This document shows, one piece after another, positions 22,237-48,084 of a stretch of 64,000 nucleotides of DNA. How positions within the stretch are numbered: position 1 is the first letter of the stretch; each line of letters begins with the position of its first letter. This DNA comes from Lama guanicoe. Taxonomy: Eukaryota. Under the pieces are notes generated by a model that was not told the DNA's origin, searched no databases, and saw only the letters and a program-made list of their open reading frames with translations. The DNA is taken from the NCBI GenBank assembly GCA_013239625.1, contig MU053216.1, positions 2,818,943 to 2,882,942 on the forward strand, read 5' to 3'. Position numbers and translations under genes: made by a program.

Positions 22237-22380
22237 CTGAGGTGGTATTTTTGGTGGTCGAGTTGGAGATGCGTGGAGGCAAGGCAGCGAGGCTGCTGTG
22301 TGCGGGGCTGAGGGTGGTTGCTGGTGAGGGAGCAGTGTCTGCGGGCAAGGTGCGGGCTGTCATCCTCTCTCCGGGAGCAC
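22237..22380 (-). CDS. PTPRC: PTPRC variable exon 6 (C) (144 nt): GAPGERMTARTLPADTAPSPATTLSPAHSSLAALPPRISNSTTKNTTS
   Basis: Within ORF 22217..22678. Acceptor ctgattgcag|GT, weak donor TCAG|gtttga. PGER...TTLS...AALP conserved. Confidence 0.94.
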
Positions 22381-24911
22381 CTGCAATCAGACAGGTCGTC
22401 AGCAGCGCCACGCACCCCTGCTGCCCGCGCCAGGGCAGGGGCCACGCAGCCAACGTCCGCATGCCCACTGCTGCTGCAGCCCTCGTGCTATGCCACAACG
22501 TATGTGCCTGCAAAACGGGGTGCAGAGCAGCACAGCTTGTGGGAGAGACGAGTTCACGGACAGACAGCTCAGATCCCGGGCAGTTTTCCAAACACGGCAC
22601 ACATTTGGAAATGGTCTGGGATGTCTGCCTGGAGGACTGCCCCGGGGAGGGCTGCTTTAGAGAACCCTGAAAACGCACAGAGTGGGTGCCGCTGGCTGGT
22701 GCCGAGACCGCAGGGCTGCAAGTGAGCTCGGAGGGCCAGAGGCTGCCGCCAGGTCTGCACGGGGGCCTGCGGCCCGCCCTGCCCAGCGCCTCGGGTGGGA
22801 CGCACCTCTCTGGGGAGGGACCCCTGGGTGCAGGCGCTTCACCTAATTTTCCTAAAGCAGAGCTGAAGGGGACGCTGCCCGTGCAGCTGCTGAGCTCGGG
22901 TTTTTTCCTTCCAGCTGAAGGTCCTAATTCTACTTTCTCTACGGAGACCAGGAAAACTCAGACGGGATTGGAGCCCAAGAGCCTCCACGTTACACAGACA
23001 ACATCCCCTCCTCTCCAATCTCATACGTGCTAGCGAGTGTAGACCATCAAGGGTGGCCACCCACGAGACGCCACCCTGTGTCTGGTCAGGACGTTCCATC
23101 ATCAAGGTCAGAGCACCTACAGCAGGTCGCACCTTCCTCCCAGCACAGGTGGGCCACGGGCGCTCACTGGGTGCCCACCACCTGCTCAGCACCTCACTAG
23201 TGGTCCCGACAAAGGCAAAAGAAACTCGGGCCAGCTCCTATTTGAGTTCATGTGGTTATTTCACCGTCACGATCCCTGGGGTCACTGGTTCAACCGTGTG
23301 AGCTTAGTCTGGGATTTGCAGTCGGATCCTCAGTATTCAAGCCCAGCGGCACGGGCACACGTGCTCTGATGCCAGCACACAGGCGGCCTCCAATCACACA
23401 TGTACACGCCGTGAGGCTTGAACGGGCATCTTCCAAAATTCTGAGTTTGGGTTCTCAGCTCAATCTTCAAAAACCACTAAACTTTCCAAATTTAACTCAA
23501 TCGTGGAATAGTATGAACAACAGAAACATCAATTTTTCAGCTCTGGCTTCTCAGAGGAAAGTTCCAACAGAGCAAGGAAAAGAGTAGAAAATGCATTTTT
23601 TTTTATCCTTTTAAAAAAATTGGAGGCACAGAACTGTCCCTCTGCAAATTTTGGAATCAGCCAGGCTTGCCTTCCTCCACGCTCTTTTCTTCTCCTCTTT
23701 TCGCTAACCCGTGTTCTCTCTGCCCCTCCCAGGTGTCCCCGGTAGTCAGGTGGTTCTGAGGGCCCCTCCCCCACTCGCTAAATCCCCCACCTCCCCTTTC
23801 ATATGAAAACCACTTCCTTGGAGCAGGTAATCTCGGGGATGGCTTAGGAGTGGTAATTACTACTTTAATTAGGTTAATTAATCTTAATCGATTTTTAATC
23901 AGTGGAATTCGCCCCTGTGAGAGGAAGAATTCTGTGTGACAGTCAGCCCCCAGGTCACGCCTCCTTCTCGGCCACACCCCGGGAATCCATGGATTTGCTA
24001 GCAGTGTCACATTTTTTTACTGCGGTTCCCACGGTAGTGGGAGCCAGGAAACCAGGCAGGGAGGTGAGGGCAGATCTTTTCCCAGATGTTCAAAGTCTGT
24101 GGATTGCCTGTCATGATTTTTCAGGCCAAGGGAAGCGTCTTAACGCTTCAAAATTATAATTACTCTACTTGATATATATTGCTTCCACGTGGGATTCATA
24201 CTGAAAGGAAAGTCACTGTGCTGGCAGGCTCCCCAGTCACACCTGTCACTTCCAGGCCCTCAGGTCACTAATGGCTACACGTGTCTGTGTGCATTTTTAA
24301 CCCGAGAAACATGCTTGTTTTTCAGGATAAAAAAGGGCACCGTGAACTGATTAGACAGTGATTTTGGAAAGACCAGGGAGGGGATAGTCTGCAGCTTCTA
24401 TAGACAGAGGTGCTTAACTGAAAGGATCTTGGTGTTCGAACGGAGAATGTAAGCATCTAATTTTTTTTCAGTCTTTTAATAAACAGTGTACTTGTGGTTA
24501 CAATTTCTCAGTGCGCTTCGGCGATAAGAGGCACGGCCTGCTTTTCATCTTTCTGTTACTGGCAGGAGGTCCTGAAGTAAAGAACCTGCGTACATATTCT
24601 TCATCTCTAACGAAAGGAGGTTTCCACTGCGCAGTAACACTTGTCCCAAACAGAAACAGAGGAAGCCCTGAAGAACCCCGTGAACAGGCTTTTCCAGCGC
24701 ACTCGTAATTCTCATTCTTCAGTATTTCATCTCCATTACAAGGACCTTTGTTACGCGGTCTCCTGGCGGGAGGGTAACTATGAAAGGATGAATTTCCAAA
24801 TTCATCAGCCAGCAAATGCGACCCGTGGACCAGCGCTTGGATTCCCTCCCCGCGTCGTTAAACGTTGTCCGTGCGCTCTTCGTAGCTGCACGAGTCTAGG
24901 GGGCCGGCAGC

Positions 24912-25045
24912 CCGGACTTGGCGCCGCCCGGGAGCGGGGCTGACGCTGCAGGGCAGGAGACCGGGGGCTACGGCCGGCAGAGGGCGCCAGCGGGCCCGCG
25001 GGCGCCAACAGGTGCGGCGTCCGCGCTGACGGCCGCCGACGGCCG
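24912..25045 (-). pseudogene. PTPRC: Degenerate remnant of PTPRC variable exon 5 (B); canonical splice sites not found
   Basis: Lies between exons A and C. PSARTPHLLAPAGPLAPSAG aligns to human exon B [20 protein letters not shown]. No AG at the codon-aligned acceptor; the probable donor position reads CCGG|GCTGCC. Confidence 0.7.
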
Positions 25046-26095
25046 GAAGGTGAGGTCATTGCATCACCACCTCCCCAGCGCAGGTGAAAATTTCAAATAC
25101 CGAGAGGTTATAAGCAGCAAACTGGTATTACAGTTTACCAACGTGGGAAATGGCTCCGTCTCTTCAAGGGCCAGTCGGCCCGTATTTCAGTTCACCTGGC
25201 GGGAGGGCAGCCAGAAACCTCCATCAAGATGGTGCTCAAAACACTGCACATACCCTGGGCCGCAAGTCCGGGCCGGAGCTCCCCACGCTTGTGCTCCAAG
25301 CCAAGACTGATGACCTTGCTGAACACAGAGCTCAGTCTCTGACCAGAGCATGTCTAGAAACTGTCTGCTTCACAAAGGACCAACAAGCAGATCAGGGGTG
25401 CCCCGGGATTCCAGGGGCATCCGGGGCTACGCCGGGCAGAAACACCTCCTACGGTAGCCTGATATTTTGCTATGAACTTGGCCACAGTACCTTTAATTCT
25501 ACCATTAGGATGCACAACCCTAATTTATTAATTTTTGAAAAATAATGCAACTATTCCTGGAGGAAATCCAAGTAACTAAACTGGATTATTAATCCTCAGT
25601 GTGGTTAAAAAAAATGAACTGTCTGTCTCTGATAATTTTCTGATACTGAGAATCTGAAACTGAACCAAGAAAGCTTCTACTCCGGGGTAAGAGCCAGGGA
25701 GGGCGGGGCCGACCCAGACCCGCAGCAGGGAGTTCTGACCTGTCGGGCCGACAGGAAACCTAGGTGAGCGGGACCAGGAGAATGATGTGGTTGGCAGAGA
25801 CAGATCAGGGAACACCGCAAACACCCCTAACCCGGATTTTGCCCAGGCGGACTTCCCTCGCCCCCTGCTCCCTGACAGCCCCAGGGCGTCACTTCAGTCA
25901 GCCAACGTTTCATTCACACCTGGATGTTCTGCGTTTTACACATTTTGTAAGATCACACACAAAGAACCTAAACACTTAACTTAAAGAAAAACTGTTCTGA
26001 TGGCTTTAAAATTTAAAAAAAGAAGAAGAAATAACGAAAAAACAGAGAGAGTGCCAAGTTTCCCTAACCCCATCTGAGTTAGGATGTCCGCCAAC

Positions 26096-26293
26096 CTGTG
26101 ACAGCAGAAGTACCATTATGAGCCGTGTGGTTCCAGGAGACTTCCGCGGTGGGACTGCCTGCGTTTAGAGGAGGCACGGTCTCTGAGGCAGCCTTGCCTG
26201 GTTCAGAGATGCTTGCGGGTGAGAATGCGGTGGTGCGAGCAGGAAAGGGGTCACTTGGAGGCAGACTTGTGGACGCCTCTGTTGTGTTCAGTC
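26096..26293 (-). CDS. PTPRC: PTPRC variable exon 4 (A) (198 nt): GLNTTEASTSLPPSDPFPARTTAFSPASISEPGKAASETVPPLNAGSPTAEVSWNHTAHNGTSAVT
   Basis: Within ORF 26079..26306. Acceptor ctgtggcag|GA, weak donor ACAG|gttggc. SDP..P..TTAFSPAS conserved. Confidence 0.95.
26206..26265 (-). promoter_or_regulatory. Exonic splicing silencer (ESS1/ARS-like) in exon 4
   Basis: Sense sequence CGCACCACCGCATTCTCACCCGCAAGCA with GCA repeats. Exon position 77 (window 26217) is C, matching the human C77 site. Confidence 0.7.
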
Positions 26294-26768: not shown

Positions 26769-26855
26769 GGGGAAGGGTATAGCTCAGTGGCAGAGCACAT
26801 GCTCAGCATGCATGAGGTCCTGAGTTCAAGCCCCAGTATCTCTATTTAAAAAAAA
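26769..26855 (+). mobile_element. Vic-1-like SINE (short form)
   Basis: gggtatagctcagtggcagagc...gagttcaagcccc with A tail, flanked by aaa(t/a)gtcta. Confidence 0.88.
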
Positions 26856-33567: not shown

Positions 33568-36392
33568 CAGCCTCCTGTCATTTTGAAAGACAACCGAGCC
33601 CTCGGCATCACAGTTGAGACTTGGGATGCGATTAAAATGACTTGTTTCACGGTCACAGAACCCCTATAGGCAGATACACCGTCTCTGTAACACACAGGTA
33701 ATATCTAAAGGACATTTTTCCCCCTCCCCCCAAAAATGATCCAGCGACTTTTACAGAAACATCAGCGGGACACCAGCAAGCATTCCCGCAGAGCCTGGCT
33801 CCCCCACGAGGAAAGGCAGCGGGTAGGCGAAGTTATGTGCATCCTCAGAGGGGGCCGCAGTAGCAGCCGTCTGCACAAGGTGTCAACATCTCACCCCATT
33901 TTGTAACTCTTCCTCAGTTCTCTGAGCAGTGATTTCAAGTGCCTGTTGCATTTCGCGAACCGGACATCATCAGAACAGGAGCAAAACCACAGCAGGAGGG
34001 ACCAGCGCTGAACAAGGCCTGGTAAGAATGCTTGTAGGAGTCGTTTAGTTGTGTCACGATCTACCCATTTGGCTGCTGGGTTTGGCCCCGGAGTGATCTG
34101 CCTGGCCAACCAGGTCACCTCCGCTGTCTGGAATAGGTGACAGCCCCGTGCTATTTATACCCTAGTTCGTGCATCACTTGAAAGCAACCATTTACAGTTA
34201 GTGGAGTCACATGAACCCAAAGCAAATGAAACATCTGCCTAAAGCATTCAATAACCAGTGCATAATAAATGCCCGCTTAACATTAGGAGGCTGTGTCCAT
34301 ATAAATAACGTTACAACGTACGTAAACATTATCTGTGAATAATGCTGGGAGGGTGTGGAACGCAGGGAAAGAAAAATATGTGAAACAGTAAGAATTAAGA
34401 GGGCACGTACTTCGGATGTGACAATGAAAGAAAAGCAGCATCAAACACCGCGTTTCTCTAAGCCTGAGCTGCGCCGAGTGTGCCCTTAAGCTCTGCGCCC
34501 ACGTCTGGCCAGGCGAGCACAATAAAGCTGAGCGCCGTCGTGCACCTGCGGCTTCTGTGTGTTACCCTTTGACTTGTACTCTTCCGGGGGCAACATTTTC
34601 TACACCTTTTTTTTCCTTCGTAAGTGCCTGTTTTCATCATTTGGACAAAGGAATATTTAGAAATATCCCAGTAGGTGGCGCCATAGCACCAGAAATCTGT
34701 AGATCATTTGTGCTTTAAACCTGTGCCCATGGAACTGACGAGGTACAAGAAACAGAGGAAAATGTAGATAACAGACCACTTGATCTTCAAAGCTGTGTTA
34801 TTCTAACACATGTATTGCTACTGAATTTACCTTTCCCAATATGTTTCCTTTACAACTCAAAATGTTTAAGTGATGGCAAATCAAAGTTACCTTGAAGTCA
34901 CACCCCTAAGTCCCCCATCAGAGATTTCAGCAAAAAACTGAGGAATTAATGGAATGAAAATGACATTTCAAAAGACGTACTCGGGCTTTACATAGCAACC
35001 ATTACCACCACCCCTCTCCCCCCACCCCAACCATTCCCATCTCCCCTACCCACTACCCCAGCCCTTCCCATCTCCCCTCCCCCCACCATCCCTCCCCTAC
35101 CTCTGCAAAAAGAATGGAATGCCATTTCCAAAGGGATTTAAACCTGTCTAGTTCAGTAAATCTGAGAAAAATACAAAGACAGAAGGGTGACACAGAAGAG
35201 ACGACATGCTTATTTTCAGCGTCCAGCCTAAAATGAATGATGGCATGTTTTAAAAGTTGAGAATGCAAACCTGACCTCCATAGATACAAAGGCCACCCGA
35301 AAATGGAAAAAAGCAAATCAGGACAAAAATAAGAGTCCACAAAAACGGATATGTACTGTTTTCCTTGCTCACTAAGGTATATAATAACAGTAAAGCAGAA
35401 AAATAAAAATGAAAGGATTGCACTTTTACTTATTCTGTAAATCTAATATAGAGTTCACAGACAGCAAACCCAAGGAGTCACAACAAATTAATAAGCGTCT
35501 CTGGAGTAAGCTCTCCATGCAAGTGACAAGCGAGGCATTATCTGGATTTCAGAGACCACAGGACAGTCTTCCTTCCCTCCATCAGTAAATACAATAATCA
35601 CAGGAACAGTTCACCAAAACAGTGTGTATCAGACAGTATGCAGACCGCTTTGCATGTTTTTGCCCTTAAATATCCCAGAAAGCTGATGAGTTGGCAATTA
35701 TTTTTCCTATTTCACAGGAAATGAAACTGAGACAATCATTCGCAGACACACTTAGGAAGCAGCAGATGGACAGAAGACTGTCCACGGCTCGTTTTCTTAT
35801 TATTTATGCAGACTTTGTGCTAAAGCATTGGGTCTATTGTTATCAGCGCCCAAAATCCCACAAACAAACCAGAAAATAATTTTAGACATCTCAGTGGGTA
35901 TAGAAACCTAAGATTTTAGTATCATTGACATGTAGCTCCTTTGATAGATAAGGAAACTAAGGCCCAGTGAGTTTAAATGCCTTTCTGACTTCATGCAATT
36001 TAGTTACAGTCGTAATGTACATGTTCCACCAATTACACAGAATTTCAACAGACTTTTTGGCGGCCTCACTCTTAAATGCAGTGGTCATCCAAGAAACACA
36101 GACAGAAGCCTTTAAGGACAGAGACCAAGAGAAACAGAAGGGAGACCTGAGAGAAACAAGACAGTACAAGACCCTGAAACCAACTGCAATTCATCTTCTC
36201 AGAAATGAGACAACATTGCATCTGTGGGCAAAACAAGGGGAGATAAAAACAATATTCCAAAATCAAGCAAGGAAGTCAATAGATGCTGGCTACAATTTTT
36301 GAAAAAAAAAGAAAAAAGAAACAGCAGGACAGCAGAAAATACCATTTAAAGGTGCTGAAATCGCCTAGTGTTTGCTTTGGCTTCTGGGAAAA

Positions 36393-36845
36393 TGGAGGAT
36401 GGGGAGGAGGATGGGGAAGACAATGGGGGGAGGATGGGGAGGAGGATGGGGAGGANNNNNNNNNNNNNNNNNNNNNNNNNNNNNNNNNNNNNNNNNNNNN
36501 NNNNNNNNNNNNNNNNNNNNNNNNNNNNNNNNNNNNNNNNNNNNNNNNNNNNNNNNNNNNNNNNNNNNNNNNNNNNNNNNNNNNNNNNNNNNNNNNNNNN
36601 NNNNNNNNNNNNNNNNNNNNNNNNNNNNNNNNNNNNNNNNNNNNNNNNNNNNNNNNNNNNNNNNNNNNNNNNNNNNNNNNNNNNNNNNNNNNNNNNNNNN
36701 NNNNNNNNNNNNNNNNNNNNNNNNNNNNNNNNNNNNGGGAGGAGGATTGGGAGGAGGTTGGGGAGGAGGATGGGAGGAGGATGGGAGGAGGATGGGGAGG
36801 AGGATGGGAGGAGGATGGGGGAGAACGGGGGGAGGAGGATGGGGG
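36393..36845. repeat. (GGAGGATGGG)n-type G-rich tandem repeat spanning an assembly gap (N 36456-36736)
   Basis: The same unit occurs on both sides of the N run. Confidence 0.92.
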
Positions 36846-38556: not shown

Positions 38557-38600
38557 NNNNNNNNNNNNNNNNNNNNNNNNNNNNNNNNNNNNNNNNNNNN
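38557..38600. other. Assembly gap (44 N)
   Basis: Run of N. Confidence 1.
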
Positions 38601-45560: not shown

Positions 45561-46079
45561 TCCAGAAGGCTGGCTGCTCGAACACTTTCAGTTGCAACTA
45601 ACAACAGCAAAACAAACCCAACTCAAACAGAATAAACACTAAGGGACTGATTATTTCACCAAAAAGGGCCAATTCAGTGGCTCAGCAACAGTGCCAGAGC
45701 CCAGGGTCCTCCTGTATTTTTTCTCTGACATTCACAGGCATCAACCTCAGTGCCCTCAAGGTCTCAAAGTGACGAGGTGTCACATTCTCACAAAATAGCA
45801 ACCAGAGACAGGAAAGGGGCCTCGCCGTCCTTTTGTTTCTTTTTAAGACCCAGGACGCAGCTTCCCCTAAACCTCTTAATGTCTCATTGGTCTAAATCGT
45901 ATCACTGTCAAAGGAAAAATGGTCACCTTGATTCACTTTGACCAACCAGGACCTAAGTGTAGGTCACATGGAAACAGCAAGATCTAACTAAACTTTAAAT
46001 CACTCGGAAAGGCATGAATAGCTAAATAATTAAATAAACACAAAGTGAATTTGTTTTTTTAAAAAGGAAGTTTTCATGA

Positions 46080-46930
46080 GCCAGAAAAACACAGAGGTGC
46101 GGGGGACGGCGATCTCAGGCCGTCCTGCCGGAGGAAGCCAAGCGGTCTGCGGCGGCGGCCGTGGGCAGAAGGGGGGATTTCAGGAGCTTTAAGGCTACGG
46201 TCTCGGGGATGTTTTATGACTAAATGCTGAGCTGCGGGAAATGGAGAGATTCAGCGCACATCCTAAGTCCCTGCCTTGGAGCCTAGCTGTGGGAAGGCCG
46301 ACAGCATTCACTGGGCCGGGGAGCGCGAGGGCCGAGTGGGCCAGTGGAGGAAGCCGCGGCGTCCGGCTTGGGGCGTGCGTGTCCGCGATGCCGGTGGCGC
46401 TCCAGCCGGGGGCGTCCGCCGCGCAGCTGCACCAGTGGGTCTCAAGGCAGAAGAGCAAGCAAAGCTGGGGAGACAGACGTGGCAGCCAGCACCCTGCACA
46501 AGGCGGGTTGGCGGCGGGATGGCCCCCGGGGAGACGCCGCCCCAGCGCTAACGGAGCCAGCAGGAGAGGCGCCGCCCGAGCGCTGCGGAGAGCGCGGCAG
46601 CCCCGCGAGGCCGGGGTCGCGCCCTGGGGCAACTAGGCGAGGCGGGCGTCCCAGCGGGAGGAAAGCTGGCGATGACGCCCGCGCGCCCGGAGAGGCGGAG
46701 GGAAGCGAGGCTCCCCTGGTCCAGGGCATCTAGCGTTTCAGAAGCCAGGCGGCCGGGTGGCGGTGCTTGGCTGTGAAAGCCAGCAGTTTCGGGGGCGGAT
46801 GGGGAGAAGCGGCCAGAAAGCAGTAAGCAGGTGGGTGGACGGGAAGCGAGAGGGCGCAGCCCACGAGGCTGGAAAAGGCCTGTGAAGGGAAAGGCAGAGC
46901 TCAAGAGTAACCGAGAGACACAGAGCGGGA
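46080..46930 (-). mobile_element. LINE-2 remnant that is now a CpG-island-like GC-rich patch
   Basis: Several collinear L2-like blocks (gagccagca, agcagtttc, ctgtgaaggg) in very CpG-dense sequence. Confidence 0.65.
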
Positions 46931-48084
46931 AGAGGGTTTTAATCTGTCAGCTATGCTGCCCTTACAGTGACTTCTCCGAAATTGTGTTTTGATGATATTA
47001 GTTACAAATTGTTTTGGAGCTTACGGGGGAAAAGATCCCTAGATTTAAAAATTGTAATGTAAATATTTCTGAAACATATTATGTACTAAATTCATTAGGA
47101 AATTATTTCAGCCTTTATTTTTCAGCCTTTGTTTTTAATTTTAAGTAGTCAGTGTGTCCAAAGCTATCTTATGTTTCACTTTTCAATGTATTTCTTCAAT
47201 AGGATTTTCTTTTATTACCAACCTTTAAACCCCAGACTGACCAGGTTTCACATAGGAAGGTGAATATAATTTTTATACCTAATGGGATTGTAGAACATTA
47301 TTAATCAGATATTATAAATATGTTATCATGAATTTGGGTTTCAATGTCTTTCCTTAAAAATGCTGATGAAAGGCAAAAATAGGAACATTCATATTCAGTA
47401 TTTAAGCTGGGTCTGTCATGTGGCCCCCCCAAGCTGTGCCAGAGGTGCACTTGTGTGACCACACTTGCAAAATGTCCAGATCACTACCAAAACTCCTGAG
47501 GTAAGTATAAAAATGAATTCAAAGCAGAAGCTAGGAAATACTTTTAGATTTCACTTAATGTCAAAAAAAAAAAAAAACCCCAGCATTTGTTCTCATAGTT
47601 GTGAAATCAGATGTTCACAACAGAAAAAAAATAAAAGGGGAACATATATTAGCTTTTCTTTATTAAGGTCCTTGGAGTGTTGCCAGAAAAGTATCTGATC
47701 AAATCCATCCTTTTCCAAGTGCACTTTTCAGGACGATGGGAGTGTGAGCAGATGTGGAGAAGAAGAGGGTGTAGTTTGGGAAAAAATGACTCCATCGTTT
47801 ACTGGACATTACAGCTCAGAGACTTGCTTATGAATTCAGTTAAAATAAAACTTGTTTTCAAAAAATTTCCCAGTAGTATCTTTGTACAAGAAACAGATTT
47901 TTCATCTGCTGATGGGGGAGAAAAGGGGTCTTGGAGTGTCTACAGGAAGCCCTGGATTTGACCCTGGCTCTGCTTCTGAAAGAACAGAGAAGTCAAGGGT
48001 CCATATCTGTAGGATTCAGCAAGGGGAGGCTTAGCAAAGGCAAAACATGGTGTGAAAGCAATGTAAAAATTTGAAAAATGAAGC

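What the first reader, a model, noticed from the sequence alone, without database searches (positions are those of the whole stretch)
24900..25075. CD45 variable exon B appears dead: GC-saturated remnant without splice sites
Seen: the only exon-B-like sequence between exons A and C (PSARTPHLLAPAGPLAPSAG versus human [20 protein letters not shown]) has TC where the acceptor AG should be. A 10-nt near-duplication (CGGCCGTCGG CGGCCGTCAG, 25026-25045) covers that spot. There is no consensus GT donor, and the likely ancestral donor reads CCGG|GCTGCC. The 3' half looks frame-shifted against human, and most differences are A/T to G/C. Weak in-frame rescue is possible (AG at 25026-27 with C|GTCAGC at 24945, 81 nt). 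Inference: this species makes only RO, RA, RC and RAC isoforms. I recall pig isoforms also lacking B, so the loss may be shared or convergent. This would matter for anti-CD45RB reagents and ectodomain length in camelid lymphocytes.
Basis: partly seen in the sequence, partly recalled or inferred. Interest (0 to 1): 0.8.

Follow-up and report, generated by a model that had tools for sequence, protein, structure and literature searches.

The report
Decayed relic of CD45 exon B
In this alpaca-like camelid, the immune-cell gene CD45 keeps only a broken, GC-rich leftover of its variable exon B; gene models suggest that pigs, ruminants, hippos and whales lack the exon too, and the leftover still carries the exon's CTCF docking motif.

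Summary
The window is PTPRC (CD45) of a South American camelid, on the minus strand. Exon A is 26293-26096 and exon C is 22380-22237, with no assembly gap between them.

The stretch 25072-24912 is a real but decayed remnant of variable exon B:
- A 16-codon block matches exon B residues at 12 of 16 positions. This is unique in the window, and 0 of 5000 shuffles reach it.
- A second block (SPAPGR) lies in a different frame.
- An 11-mer identical to human exon 5 occurs once.
- A 10-nt tandem repeat is present.

Every candidate splice site is weaker than every real site in the window. None of the 18 camelid protein records contains B, and the 2.05-Gb assembly holds no intact copy.

An in-phase AG|GTG at 25072-25069 was missed.

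The loss is not camelid-specific. None of 132 artiodactyl records has B, against 82 of 96 from other mammals.

The GC enrichment fits a regional GC/CpG-rich regime. The best-kept part of the relic is the antisense CTCF core, which sits at the centre of a 500-bp CpG peak.

RNA junctions could not be tested because the read-laying run was lost. This is a new member of a known kind, of moderate interest.

The parts
26096..26293 (-). PTPRC variable exon 4 (A), 198 nt, phase 1-1
   Evidence: AG|GACTG...CACAG|GT. tblastn to Vicugna pacos X1 (P0125) residues 34-100 at 100% identity.
24912..25072 (-). Decayed remnant of variable exon 5 (B), taken from the candidate acceptor AG to the end of the last alignable codon
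   Evidence: Single copy in the 2.05-Gb assembly.
25071..25072 (-). AG of an AG|GTG junction, in phase with exon A. Possible ancestral acceptor, with G at -3 and GGGG at -6 to -3
   Evidence: Read. Rough acceptor score -4.2, against 2.3 to 14.2 for the ten real acceptors.
25045..25055 (-). 11-mer CCTCACCTTCC (PHLP codons), identical to the start of the human exon 5 probe primer
   Evidence: One match in the window; 0.03 expected, and 3 of 100 shuffles have any match. Primer taken from the supplement of PMC6699469.
25024..25045 (.). 10-nt tandem repeat, 2.2 copies
   Evidence: TRF score 37, 91% matches. Offset-10 self-match, 11 of 12.
24973..25020 (-). Block 1: TPHLLAPAGPLAPSAG, collinear with exon B columns 7-22
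   Evidence: 12 of 16 residues are seen in the same column of 29 distinct B exons. The other 4 are each one nucleotide step away. Unique in the window; 0 of 5000 shuffles reach it.
24974..24988 (+). CTCF-like core CCGGCAGAGGGCGCC, the antisense of the APSAG codons
   Evidence: One mismatch to the recalled consensus CCASYAGRKGGCRSY. Two such sites in 64 kb, 0.33 expected. 54 of 5000 core shuffles and 13 of 2000 island shuffles give one. The human exon 5 CTCF site is centred on the same codons.
24947..24953 (-). CCCTGCA, which matches the recalled ARS/hnRNP L-type heptamer MCYYGCA
   Evidence: One each in exon A, the relic and exon C. Two in the whole A-C intron. Background 0.48 per kb.
24924..24941 (-). 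Block 2: SPAPGR, matching exon B columns 38-43 but in a different frame from block 1
   Evidence: 6 of 6 residues seen in column. 31 nt separate the blocks, against 45 nt in intact exons.
24721..25220 (.). CpG-rich block (500 bp, GC 0.61, CpG o/e 0.97, 45 CpG) centred on the CTCF-like core
   Evidence: Both flanks are single copy in the genome.
22237..22380 (-). PTPRC variable exon 6 (C), 144 nt, phase 1-1
   Evidence: TTGCAG|GTGCTC...CCTCAG|GT. tblastn to P0125.

Best explanation
The stretch is the decayed remnant (a pseudo-exon) of PTPRC variable exon 5/B. It sits about 1 kb downstream of exon A and about 2.5 kb upstream of exon C, on the gene strand.

It no longer works as an exon:
- The ancestral reading frame is broken at least twice.
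- A 10-nt tandem repeat has been inserted.
- About 38 nt of extra sequence lie between a conserved PHLP 11-mer and the rest of the exon.
- About 14 nt are missing between the two recognisable blocks.
- No competent acceptor or donor remains.

The pre-mRNA is therefore spliced from A (or exon 3) straight to C or exon 7. This gives isoforms built only from A and C.

The exon was most likely lost before the radiation of Artiodactyla, not in camelids alone (inferred from gene models). After its death the relic evolved under the GC- and CpG-enriching regime that marks the whole 3-Mb contig, presumably GC-biased gene conversion (inferred).

Shown: anatomy, uniqueness, absence from gene models, and regional composition. 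Inferred: absence from mRNA, the timing of the loss, and the cause of the GC enrichment.
For: HOMOLOGY
- Block 1 scores 12/16, unique in the window, and 0 of 5000 shuffles reach it. Block 2 scores 6/6.
- The four non-matching codons of block 1 are each one step from the invariant residue.
- The human exon 5 11-mer occurs once, at 25055-25045.
- Strand, order and intron are the expected ones.

DECAY
- The blocks lie in different frames, 31 nt apart instead of 45.
- TRF finds the 10-nt repeat.
- Rough splice scores: acceptor candidates -4.2 and -4.6, against 2.3 to 14.2 for ten real acceptors. Ten GT sites score -3.1 to -8.1, against 0.0 to 7.5 for eleven real donors.

NO USE AS AN EXON
- None of 18 camelid records contains B, and nine join A directly to C.
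- The 50-aa relic peptide finds no protein of 89-2000 aa (692 candidates, none at E<=0.01).
- The 95-aa open frame finds nothing among 1.84 billion representatives.

NO INTACT COPY ELSEWHERE
- The relic is single copy.
- A horse exon B peptide gives only a chance hit in the 2.05-Gb assembly (E 2.8).
- There is no N run in the intron.

ORDER-WIDE LOSS
- The exon-B profile hits 0 of 132 artiodactyl records, from about 40 species by my hand count of names. It hits 82 of 96 other mammalian records.
- 47 artiodactyl records have A and C with constant spacing.

REGIONAL GC REGIME
- Ten 10-kb samples of the window's contig have GC 0.42-0.64 and CpG o/e 0.38-0.59.
- Ten samples of another contig have GC 0.30-0.40 and CpG o/e 0.07-0.25.
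Against: - No RNA reads were examined, so low-level inclusion is not excluded.
- Plain HMMER scoring of the relic is not significant: -5.9 bits; 43/1000 and 40/300 shuffles reach the observed score. A chaining score ranked it 12th of 2522 tiles.
- The decisive block statistic was chosen after seeing the alignment.
- The frame entered from AG 25072 is open through the whole relic, and three GT sites are in phase, giving exons of 99, 126 or 153 nt.
- The CTCF-like and ARS-like motifs persist.
- The splice yardstick uses recalled consensus frequencies, not a validated model.
- No DNA of another artiodactyl was available. A single shared loss therefore rests on gene models only.
- Some non-artiodactyl models also lack B (pangolin, kangaroo rat X1, some bats).
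Confidence: 0.72

Rival explanations
1. The relic is dead as coding sequence but is kept as a DNA element. The CTCF site that in human lies inside exon 5 is still bound. It holds a roughly 500-bp patch unmethylated in the germ line, which would explain the CpG peak, and it may still pause RNA polymerase II or act as a boundary that affects the choice between exons A and C. This adds to the best explanation and does not exclude it.
For: - The CTCF-like core at 24974-24988 has one mismatch to the recalled consensus. Only 2 such sites occur in 64 kb, with 0.33 expected. It appears in 54 of 5000 composition-matched core shuffles and 13 of 2000 island shuffles.
- It is the antisense of the APSAG codons, the only run of five consecutive majority-consensus residues in the relic.
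- The human exon 5 CTCF site is a strong-motif site. [quoted passage not shown]
- CpG density peaks in the two 150-nt bins around the motif (19 and 16 CpG, o/e 1.0 and 1.09). It falls to 0.25-0.6 beyond about 300 nt.
- Windows this CpG-rich are rare: 8 of 1886 in 200 kb of sampled genome, and 5 of 622 in the window, 4 of them this island.
Against: - The motif is inherited from the exon, and its codons helped me recognise the relic, so its survival is not an independent test.
- Five unchanged codons can survive by chance.
- The whole contig is CpG-enriched. A local hotspot of GC-biased gene conversion would give the same peak.
- The consensus is recalled and no position weight matrix was available.
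- No binding, methylation or cross-species data were available.
Confidence: 0.22
2. The stretch is still a working, strongly diverged cassette exon. It would use AG 25072-71 or AG 25027-26 with one of the in-phase GT sites, and would be included in some cell types that gene models have missed.
For: - The frame is open in phase with exon A from 25070 to beyond 24830.
- In-phase GT sites give exons of 99, 126, 153 nt from 25070, or 54, 81, 108 nt from 25025.
- The ARS-like and CTCF-like motifs are kept.
- Exon 13 of the same gene uses a GAG acceptor.
Against: - Both acceptor candidates and all ten GT sites score below every real site in the window.
- An open frame of about 80 codons is unremarkable at 77% GC (my estimate: probability about 0.4).
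- The encoded peptide is arginine-rich, unlike the Ser/Thr-rich mucin-type exon B.
- None of 18 camelid records includes it. No protein carrying it was found.
Confidence: 0.07
3. Chance resemblance: exon B was deleted outright, and this is an unrelated GC-rich intronic patch whose translation happens to resemble it.
For: - HMMER scores are not significant.
- A whole-genome search with the horse exon did not return the relic at E<=10.
- The chaining score is not distinctive.
- Identity to the 26-nt human primer is only 16 of 26, a level that 16 other positions on this strand also reach.
Against: Three separate signals fall within 150 nt, on the right strand, in the right intron and in the right order:
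- Block 1, unique at 12/16, with 0 of 5000 shuffles reaching it.
- Block 2, 6/6.
- The exact human 11-mer, 0.03 expected in the window.

In addition, the four mismatched codons of block 1 are all single-step changes.
Confidence: 0.04

Closest known systems
Human PTPRC (CD45) variable exon 5/B with its internal CTCF site. I saw the work of Shukla et al. 2011 only through passages of the review PMC8373115 and of PMC6699469.
   Same: Same gene, same position between exons A and C, same strand. The PHLP 11-mer and the (A/T)PSAG codons that carry the CTCF core are kept, and an ARS-like heptamer is present.
   Different: The human exon is a 47-codon cassette of the phase 1-1 series and appears in the ABC, AB, BC and B isoforms. 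Here the frame is broken, the splice sites are poor, the sequence is 77% GC, and no gene model uses it.
Pig CD45 isoform set without exon B (Schnitzlein and Zuckermann 1998, Vet Immunol Immunopathol). This is recalled only. It was not in the searched library and I did not read it.
   Same: An artiodactyl CD45 with only A and C as variable exons. The Sus scrofa and Phacochoerus records in hand join A directly to C.
   Different: That work, as I recall it, is about cDNAs and antibodies, not about a genomic relic. Camelids are a different suborder.
Sequences driven to high GC by local or regional GC-biased gene conversion, for example mouse Fxy/Mid1 after its move into the pseudoautosomal region (recalled, not read).
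   Same: Inferred changes are mostly from A/T to G/C. Small tandem duplications are present. The surrounding contig is GC- and CpG-rich.
   Different: Changes could not be polarised with an outgroup, and recombination rate is unknown. The CpG peak is narrow and centred on a CTCF-like motif, which biased conversion alone does not predict.

Membership tests
PTPRC variable exon 5 (B), functional cassette exon | Lies between exons A and C on the gene strand | tested here: met
   The relic is at 25072-24912. Exon A ends at 26096 and exon C starts at 22380.
PTPRC variable exon 5 (B), functional cassette exon | Sequence similarity to exon B of other mammals | tested here: inconclusive
   The block test is strong: 12/16, unique, 0 of 5000 shuffles. 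The human 11-mer is unique. But HMMER gives -5.9 to 3.2 bits, with 43/1000 and 40/300 shuffles reaching the score.
PTPRC variable exon 5 (B), functional cassette exon | Intact frame of about 47 codons, collinear with other B exons | tested here: not met
   The blocks are in different frames, 31 nt apart instead of 45. There is a 10-nt repeat, and a second PHLP lies 38 nt upstream.
PTPRC variable exon 5 (B), functional cassette exon | Usable AG acceptor and GT donor in phase 1 | tested here: not met
   In-phase AG and GT sites exist, but all score below every real site in the window on a rough, recalled yardstick.
PTPRC variable exon 5 (B), functional cassette exon | Included in mRNA | not testable with these tools
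Indirectly, none of 18 camelid models includes it, and searches found nothing.
Pseudo-exon (relic of a lost exon) | Recognisable homology together with disabling lesions, and absence from transcript models | tested here: met
Pseudo-exon (relic of a lost exon) | Orthologous intact exon in outgroups and the same loss in sister lineages, shown at DNA level | not testable with these tools
   Only protein records of other mammals were available. The one metagenome scan gave two CA-repeat false hits.
CTCF binding site | Match to the core motif | tested here: met
   14 of 15 positions of the recalled consensus, at 24974-24988. Rare in composition-matched shuffles.
CTCF binding site | Occupancy by CTCF; unmethylated CpGs | not testable with these tools
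   No ChIP or methylation data were available.
CpG island (Gardiner-Garden and Frommer criteria, recalled: 200 bp or more, GC 0.5 or more, o/e 0.6 or more) | Length, GC content and CpG observed/expected | tested here: met
   24721-25220: 500 bp, GC 0.61, o/e 0.97. The regional background is itself high, at 0.38-0.59.

The most novel reading that the evidence does not exclude
An exon can die while the protein-DNA switch inside it lives on. Selection would have kept the methylation-sensitive CTCF site of CD45 exon 5 in camelids, and perhaps in all artiodactyls, long after the exon stopped being spliced. It would hold a roughly 500-bp patch unmethylated in the germ line and would still shape polymerase pausing or chromatin looping, and so the choice between exons A and C. 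This would separate the splicing 'roadblock' role of the site from any other role it has.
Probability: 0.2. Interest if true: 0.65.

Novelty: new member of a known kind. Interest (0 to 1): 0.4.

Why it matters
REAGENTS AND NOMENCLATURE
- If camelids and other artiodactyls cannot make B-containing CD45, then 'CD45RB' reagents and the human/mouse ABC nomenclature do not transfer to them.
- Passages of two bovine papers (PMC9180881, PMC8300432) describe CD45 isoforms through the human exon 4/5/6 scheme, and none of these passages mentions a missing exon.
- The longest ectodomain would be about 47 residues shorter than in human.

A NATURAL EXPERIMENT
- The relic bears on the best-known case of CTCF-dependent splicing.
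- The exon is gone, but the CTCF core sits at the centre of a CpG peak.
- Binding and methylation assays in camelid cells, and a comparison of relics across artiodactyls, could show whether that site has a role beyond including exon 5.

Tried and rejected
RNA EVIDENCE
- The look-up of sequencing runs listed 24 runs. None was clearly lymphoid RNA. The shares were oddly uniform (0.26 and 0.74).
No reads were laid, so nothing about expression follows from this.

DNA OF OTHER MAMMALS
- The one metagenome scan, run with an alignment of eight exon B peptides, returned two loci. Both are CA-repeat translations (THTHTH), not exon B.
- The own-genome search does not accept alignments. I used a single horse peptide instead.

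SCORING
- A frameshift-tolerant DP alignment recovered only block 1, at 20.1 bits.
- A chaining score over many small segments was too permissive: 33 of 2000 shuffles reached it, and the relic ranked 12th of 2522 tiles.
- Identity to the human 26-nt primer (16 of 26 in two registers) is not significant by itself.
- A roughly 38-nt internal duplication was considered. By eye the two copies agree at about 18 of 38 positions, and no offset-38 match was among the eight best self-matches. I left this open.

YOUNG REPEAT AS THE CAUSE OF THE CpG RICHNESS
- Rejected: the relic and both flanks are single copy.

LITERATURE
- Ten searches found no paper in the library that states pig, cattle or camelid CD45 lacks exon B. 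The library lacks most subscription journals.
- Earlier scan notes held nothing relevant.
- One repeat finder failed on a strand rule. Two scripts failed on an hmmsearch option.
Full report
WHAT THE WINDOW IS

The finding lies in PTPRC (CD45), which is read on the minus strand. That search gave 2 clusters at E<=0.01 among 182 candidates.

The Vicugna pacos X1 protein (P0125) matches exon A at 100% and the other exons at 92-100%. The animal is therefore a South American camelid close to alpaca.

Exons on the minus strand:
- exon 3: about 30163-30137
- exon A: 26293-26096
- exon C: 22380-22237
- exon 7: about 21460-21380
- exon 8: about 20250-20224
- exon 9: from about 18494

The only N runs are 36456-36736 and 38557-38600, so no gap hides an exon between A and C. 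Exon 2 is not in the window.

IS THE EXON-B-LIKE STRETCH REAL?

I built a profile from 29 distinct exon B segments of other mammals.

Plain HMMER scoring is unimpressive:
- The relic is the only minus-strand hit in the six-frame window, at -5.9 bits. A plus-strand low-complexity hit scores higher.
- On the 221-nt core it scores 3.2 bits, and 43 of 1000 dinucleotide shuffles reach that. On the whole intron, 40 of 300 shuffles reach the observed score.
- A permissive chaining score did not single it out: it ranked 12th of 2522 tiles, and 33 of 2000 shuffles reached it.

A stricter, ungapped test does single it out. In the 16 codons 25020-24973 (TPHLLAPAGPLAPSAG), 12 residues are ones seen in the same column of real B exons. 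That score occurs once in the whole window on both strands. The next best is 9, and none of 5000 shuffles of the GC-rich core exceeds 10. I chose this statistic after seeing the alignment, which weakens it.

Three further signals agree with it:
- The four non-matching codons are each one nucleotide step from the invariant residue.
- A second block, SPAPGR (24941-24924), matches columns 38-43 at 6 of 6.
- The first 11 bases of the forward primer of a published human exon 5 probe (supplement passage of PMC6699469) occur exactly once in the window, at 25055-25045 on the minus strand. The chance expectation is 0.03.

All of this falls within 150 nt, on the right strand, in the right intron and in the right order. 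I take the homology as real.

HOW IT IS BROKEN

- Block 2 is in a different frame from block 1. Only 31 nt separate them, where intact exons have 45 nt.
- A 10-nt unit is repeated 2.2 times at 25024-25045.
- The conserved PHLP 11-mer lies 38 nt upstream of the PHL of block 1, and in yet another frame. The 5' part has therefore gained sequence or been partly duplicated. I could not resolve which.

- However, 15 nt upstream of the 11-mer there is an AG|GTG (25072-25069), in phase with exon A. All real B exons begin GV or GA.
- This may be the old acceptor. It has G at -3 and GGGG just before.

I scored splice sites on a rough yardstick built from recalled consensus frequencies:
- The ten real acceptors score 2.3 to 14.2. 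The two in-phase candidates score -4.2 and -4.6.
- The eleven real donors score 0.0 to 7.5. The ten GT sites between 25030 and 24822 score -3.1 to -8.1.

At the expected donor position the sequence reads CT, with GC one base earlier.

The frame entered from 25070 is open for about 90 codons. At 77% GC that is not remarkable. The peptide is arginine-rich, unlike the Ser/Thr-rich exon B.

IS IT USED?

I could not test RNA. The run search returned no clearly lymphoid RNA run.

The indirect evidence is as follows:
- Of 18 camelid PTPRC records (Vicugna pacos, Camelus dromedarius, C. bactrianus, C. ferus), nine have A joined directly to C, two have C only, four have neither, and three also lack exon 7. 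None has B, and none has A alone.
- The relic peptide finds no protein of 89-2000 residues in a collection of 5.8 billion.
- The 95-residue open frame finds nothing among 1.84 billion representatives.
- The relic is single copy in the 2.05-Gb assembly.
- A horse exon B peptide finds only a chance match there (E 2.8).

NOT A CAMELID PECULIARITY

I had 228 PTPRC records in hand.
- The exon B profile hits 82 of 96 non-artiodactyl records and 0 of 132 artiodactyl records. The artiodactyl records cover camelids, Sus and Phacochoerus, hippopotamus, about 20 cetaceans and about 14 ruminants.
- Forty-seven artiodactyl records carry both A and C at a constant spacing of 44-46 residues between the two search motifs. 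Where B is present, that spacing is 85-93.
- One unnamed record (P0105), which I counted as non-artiodactyl, looks like a buffalo short isoform.

The simplest reading is one loss before the artiodactyl radiation. This rests on gene models, not DNA. A few non-artiodactyl models also join A to C (pangolin, kangaroo rat X1, phyllostomid bats), so models alone can mislead.

The paper I recall for it (Schnitzlein and Zuckermann 1998) was not in the library, and I did not read it.

WHY SO GC-RICH?

- The relic is 77-78% GC with a CpG observed/expected ratio of 0.90-0.94.
- Inferred changes are mostly from A/T to G/C. From codons: 7.3 against 1.5 in the reverse direction. Against the 26-nt human primer: 7 against 2. 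The numbers are small and not polarised.
- The context matters. Ten 10-kb samples of the window's own 2.99-Mb contig have GC 0.42-0.64 and CpG o/e 0.38-0.59. Ten samples of a 21-Mb contig have GC 0.30-0.40 and o/e 0.07-0.25.

The gene therefore lies in a region with a strong GC- and CpG-enriching regime. The textbook cause would be GC-biased gene conversion (inference).

Neither the relic nor its flanks are repeated in the genome.

THE UNEXPECTED PART

- The relic sits at the centre of the sharpest CpG peak in the window: 24721-25220, 500 bp, o/e 0.97.
- The two 150-nt bins at the centre hold 19 and 16 CpGs. The ratio falls to 0.25-0.6 beyond about 300 nt.
- At the centre, at 24974-24988 on the plus strand, is CCGGCAGAGGGCGCC. 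It has one mismatch to the recalled CTCF consensus.
- Only two such sites occur in 64 kb, with 0.33 expected. It arises in 54 of 5000 core shuffles and 13 of 2000 island shuffles.
- It is the antisense of the APSAG codons, the best-kept run in the relic.

In human, a strong-motif, methylation-sensitive CTCF site inside exon 5 promotes inclusion of that exon (passages of PMC8373115 and PMC6699469). The 72-bp probe described as centred on that site runs from the PHLP codons to the GTDTQTFSGS codons. Its centre therefore falls on QTPSAG.

So the dead exon keeps the core of its CTCF site. This could be inheritance plus chance, because the motif helped me find the relic. It could also mean the site is still used. 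I put the second reading at about 0.2.

An ARS-like heptamer (recalled motif) also occurs once each in exon A, the relic and exon C.

VERDICT

The acceptor detail depends on the register, and an in-phase AG was missed.
- The interpretation 'dead exon, only A and C variable' is well supported indirectly but is unproven at RNA level.
- The loss is most likely order-wide, not camelid-specific.
- This is a new member of a known kind (exon loss leaving a pseudo-exon; the pig precedent is recalled), of moderate interest. It is raised somewhat by the retained CTCF core in a CpG peak, which is directly testable.

Noticed in passing
G000 contig C371 (loci L017-L026) against contig C5895 (loci L007-L016): The 2.99-Mb contig that holds PTPRC is GC- and CpG-rich along its length. 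GC is 0.58-0.64 over the first 1.4 Mb and falls to 0.42-0.43 near the gene. CpG o/e is 0.38-0.59. A 21-Mb contig has GC 0.30-0.40 and o/e 0.07-0.25. This suggests a high-recombination or chromosome-end setting for this gene in the camelid.
   Followed up: partly
window 46061-46980: A second CpG-island-like block (920 bp, GC 0.66, o/e 0.84) lies about 16 kb upstream of exon 3, within the long intron 2. It has no CTCF-consensus match. Its function is unknown.
   Followed up: no
window 34668-34682 (+): The only perfect match to the recalled CTCF consensus in the window, in the intron upstream of exon 3.
   Followed up: no
window 26773-26844 (+): A tRNA-Ala(AGC)-like sequence, antisense to PTPRC in the intron upstream of exon A (Rfam 45.8 bits; ARAGORN). 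It may be a tRNA gene or the head of a tRNA-derived SINE.
   Followed up: partly
window 7437 (acceptor of the exon at about 7437-7286): A constitutive PTPRC exon uses a GAG acceptor (G at -3) behind a strong pyrimidine tract.
   Followed up: no
proteins P0174 (Megaptera) and P0213/P0023 (Hippopotamus): These gene models carry MLTAFVIAG just before exon C. The alpaca intron immediately upstream of exon C translates to a similar LTTCLIAG. These models therefore read through intron sequence or use an alternative start there.
   Followed up: no
proteins P0093, P0057, P0197, P0228 and other ruminant records: Ruminant CD45 carries 3 to about 12 tandem copies of a unit of about 14 residues (SPPLTSNSTTQDNA-like) after exon C. 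The copy number differs between species and isoforms.
   Followed up: no
proteins P0030 (Manis), P0108 (Dipodomys X1), P0062 and P0111 (phyllostomid bats): These non-artiodactyl models also join exon A directly to exon C. This is either unannotated B exons or further independent losses.
   Followed up: no
(runs for window 22237-26293): Fourteen small runs are listed with a share of 0.25-0.26 of the sampled words (thirteen at 0.26, one at 0.25). Six other runs all hold exactly 0.74. The uniformity and the complementarity of the two values are unexplained, and no run could be laid.
   Followed up: no
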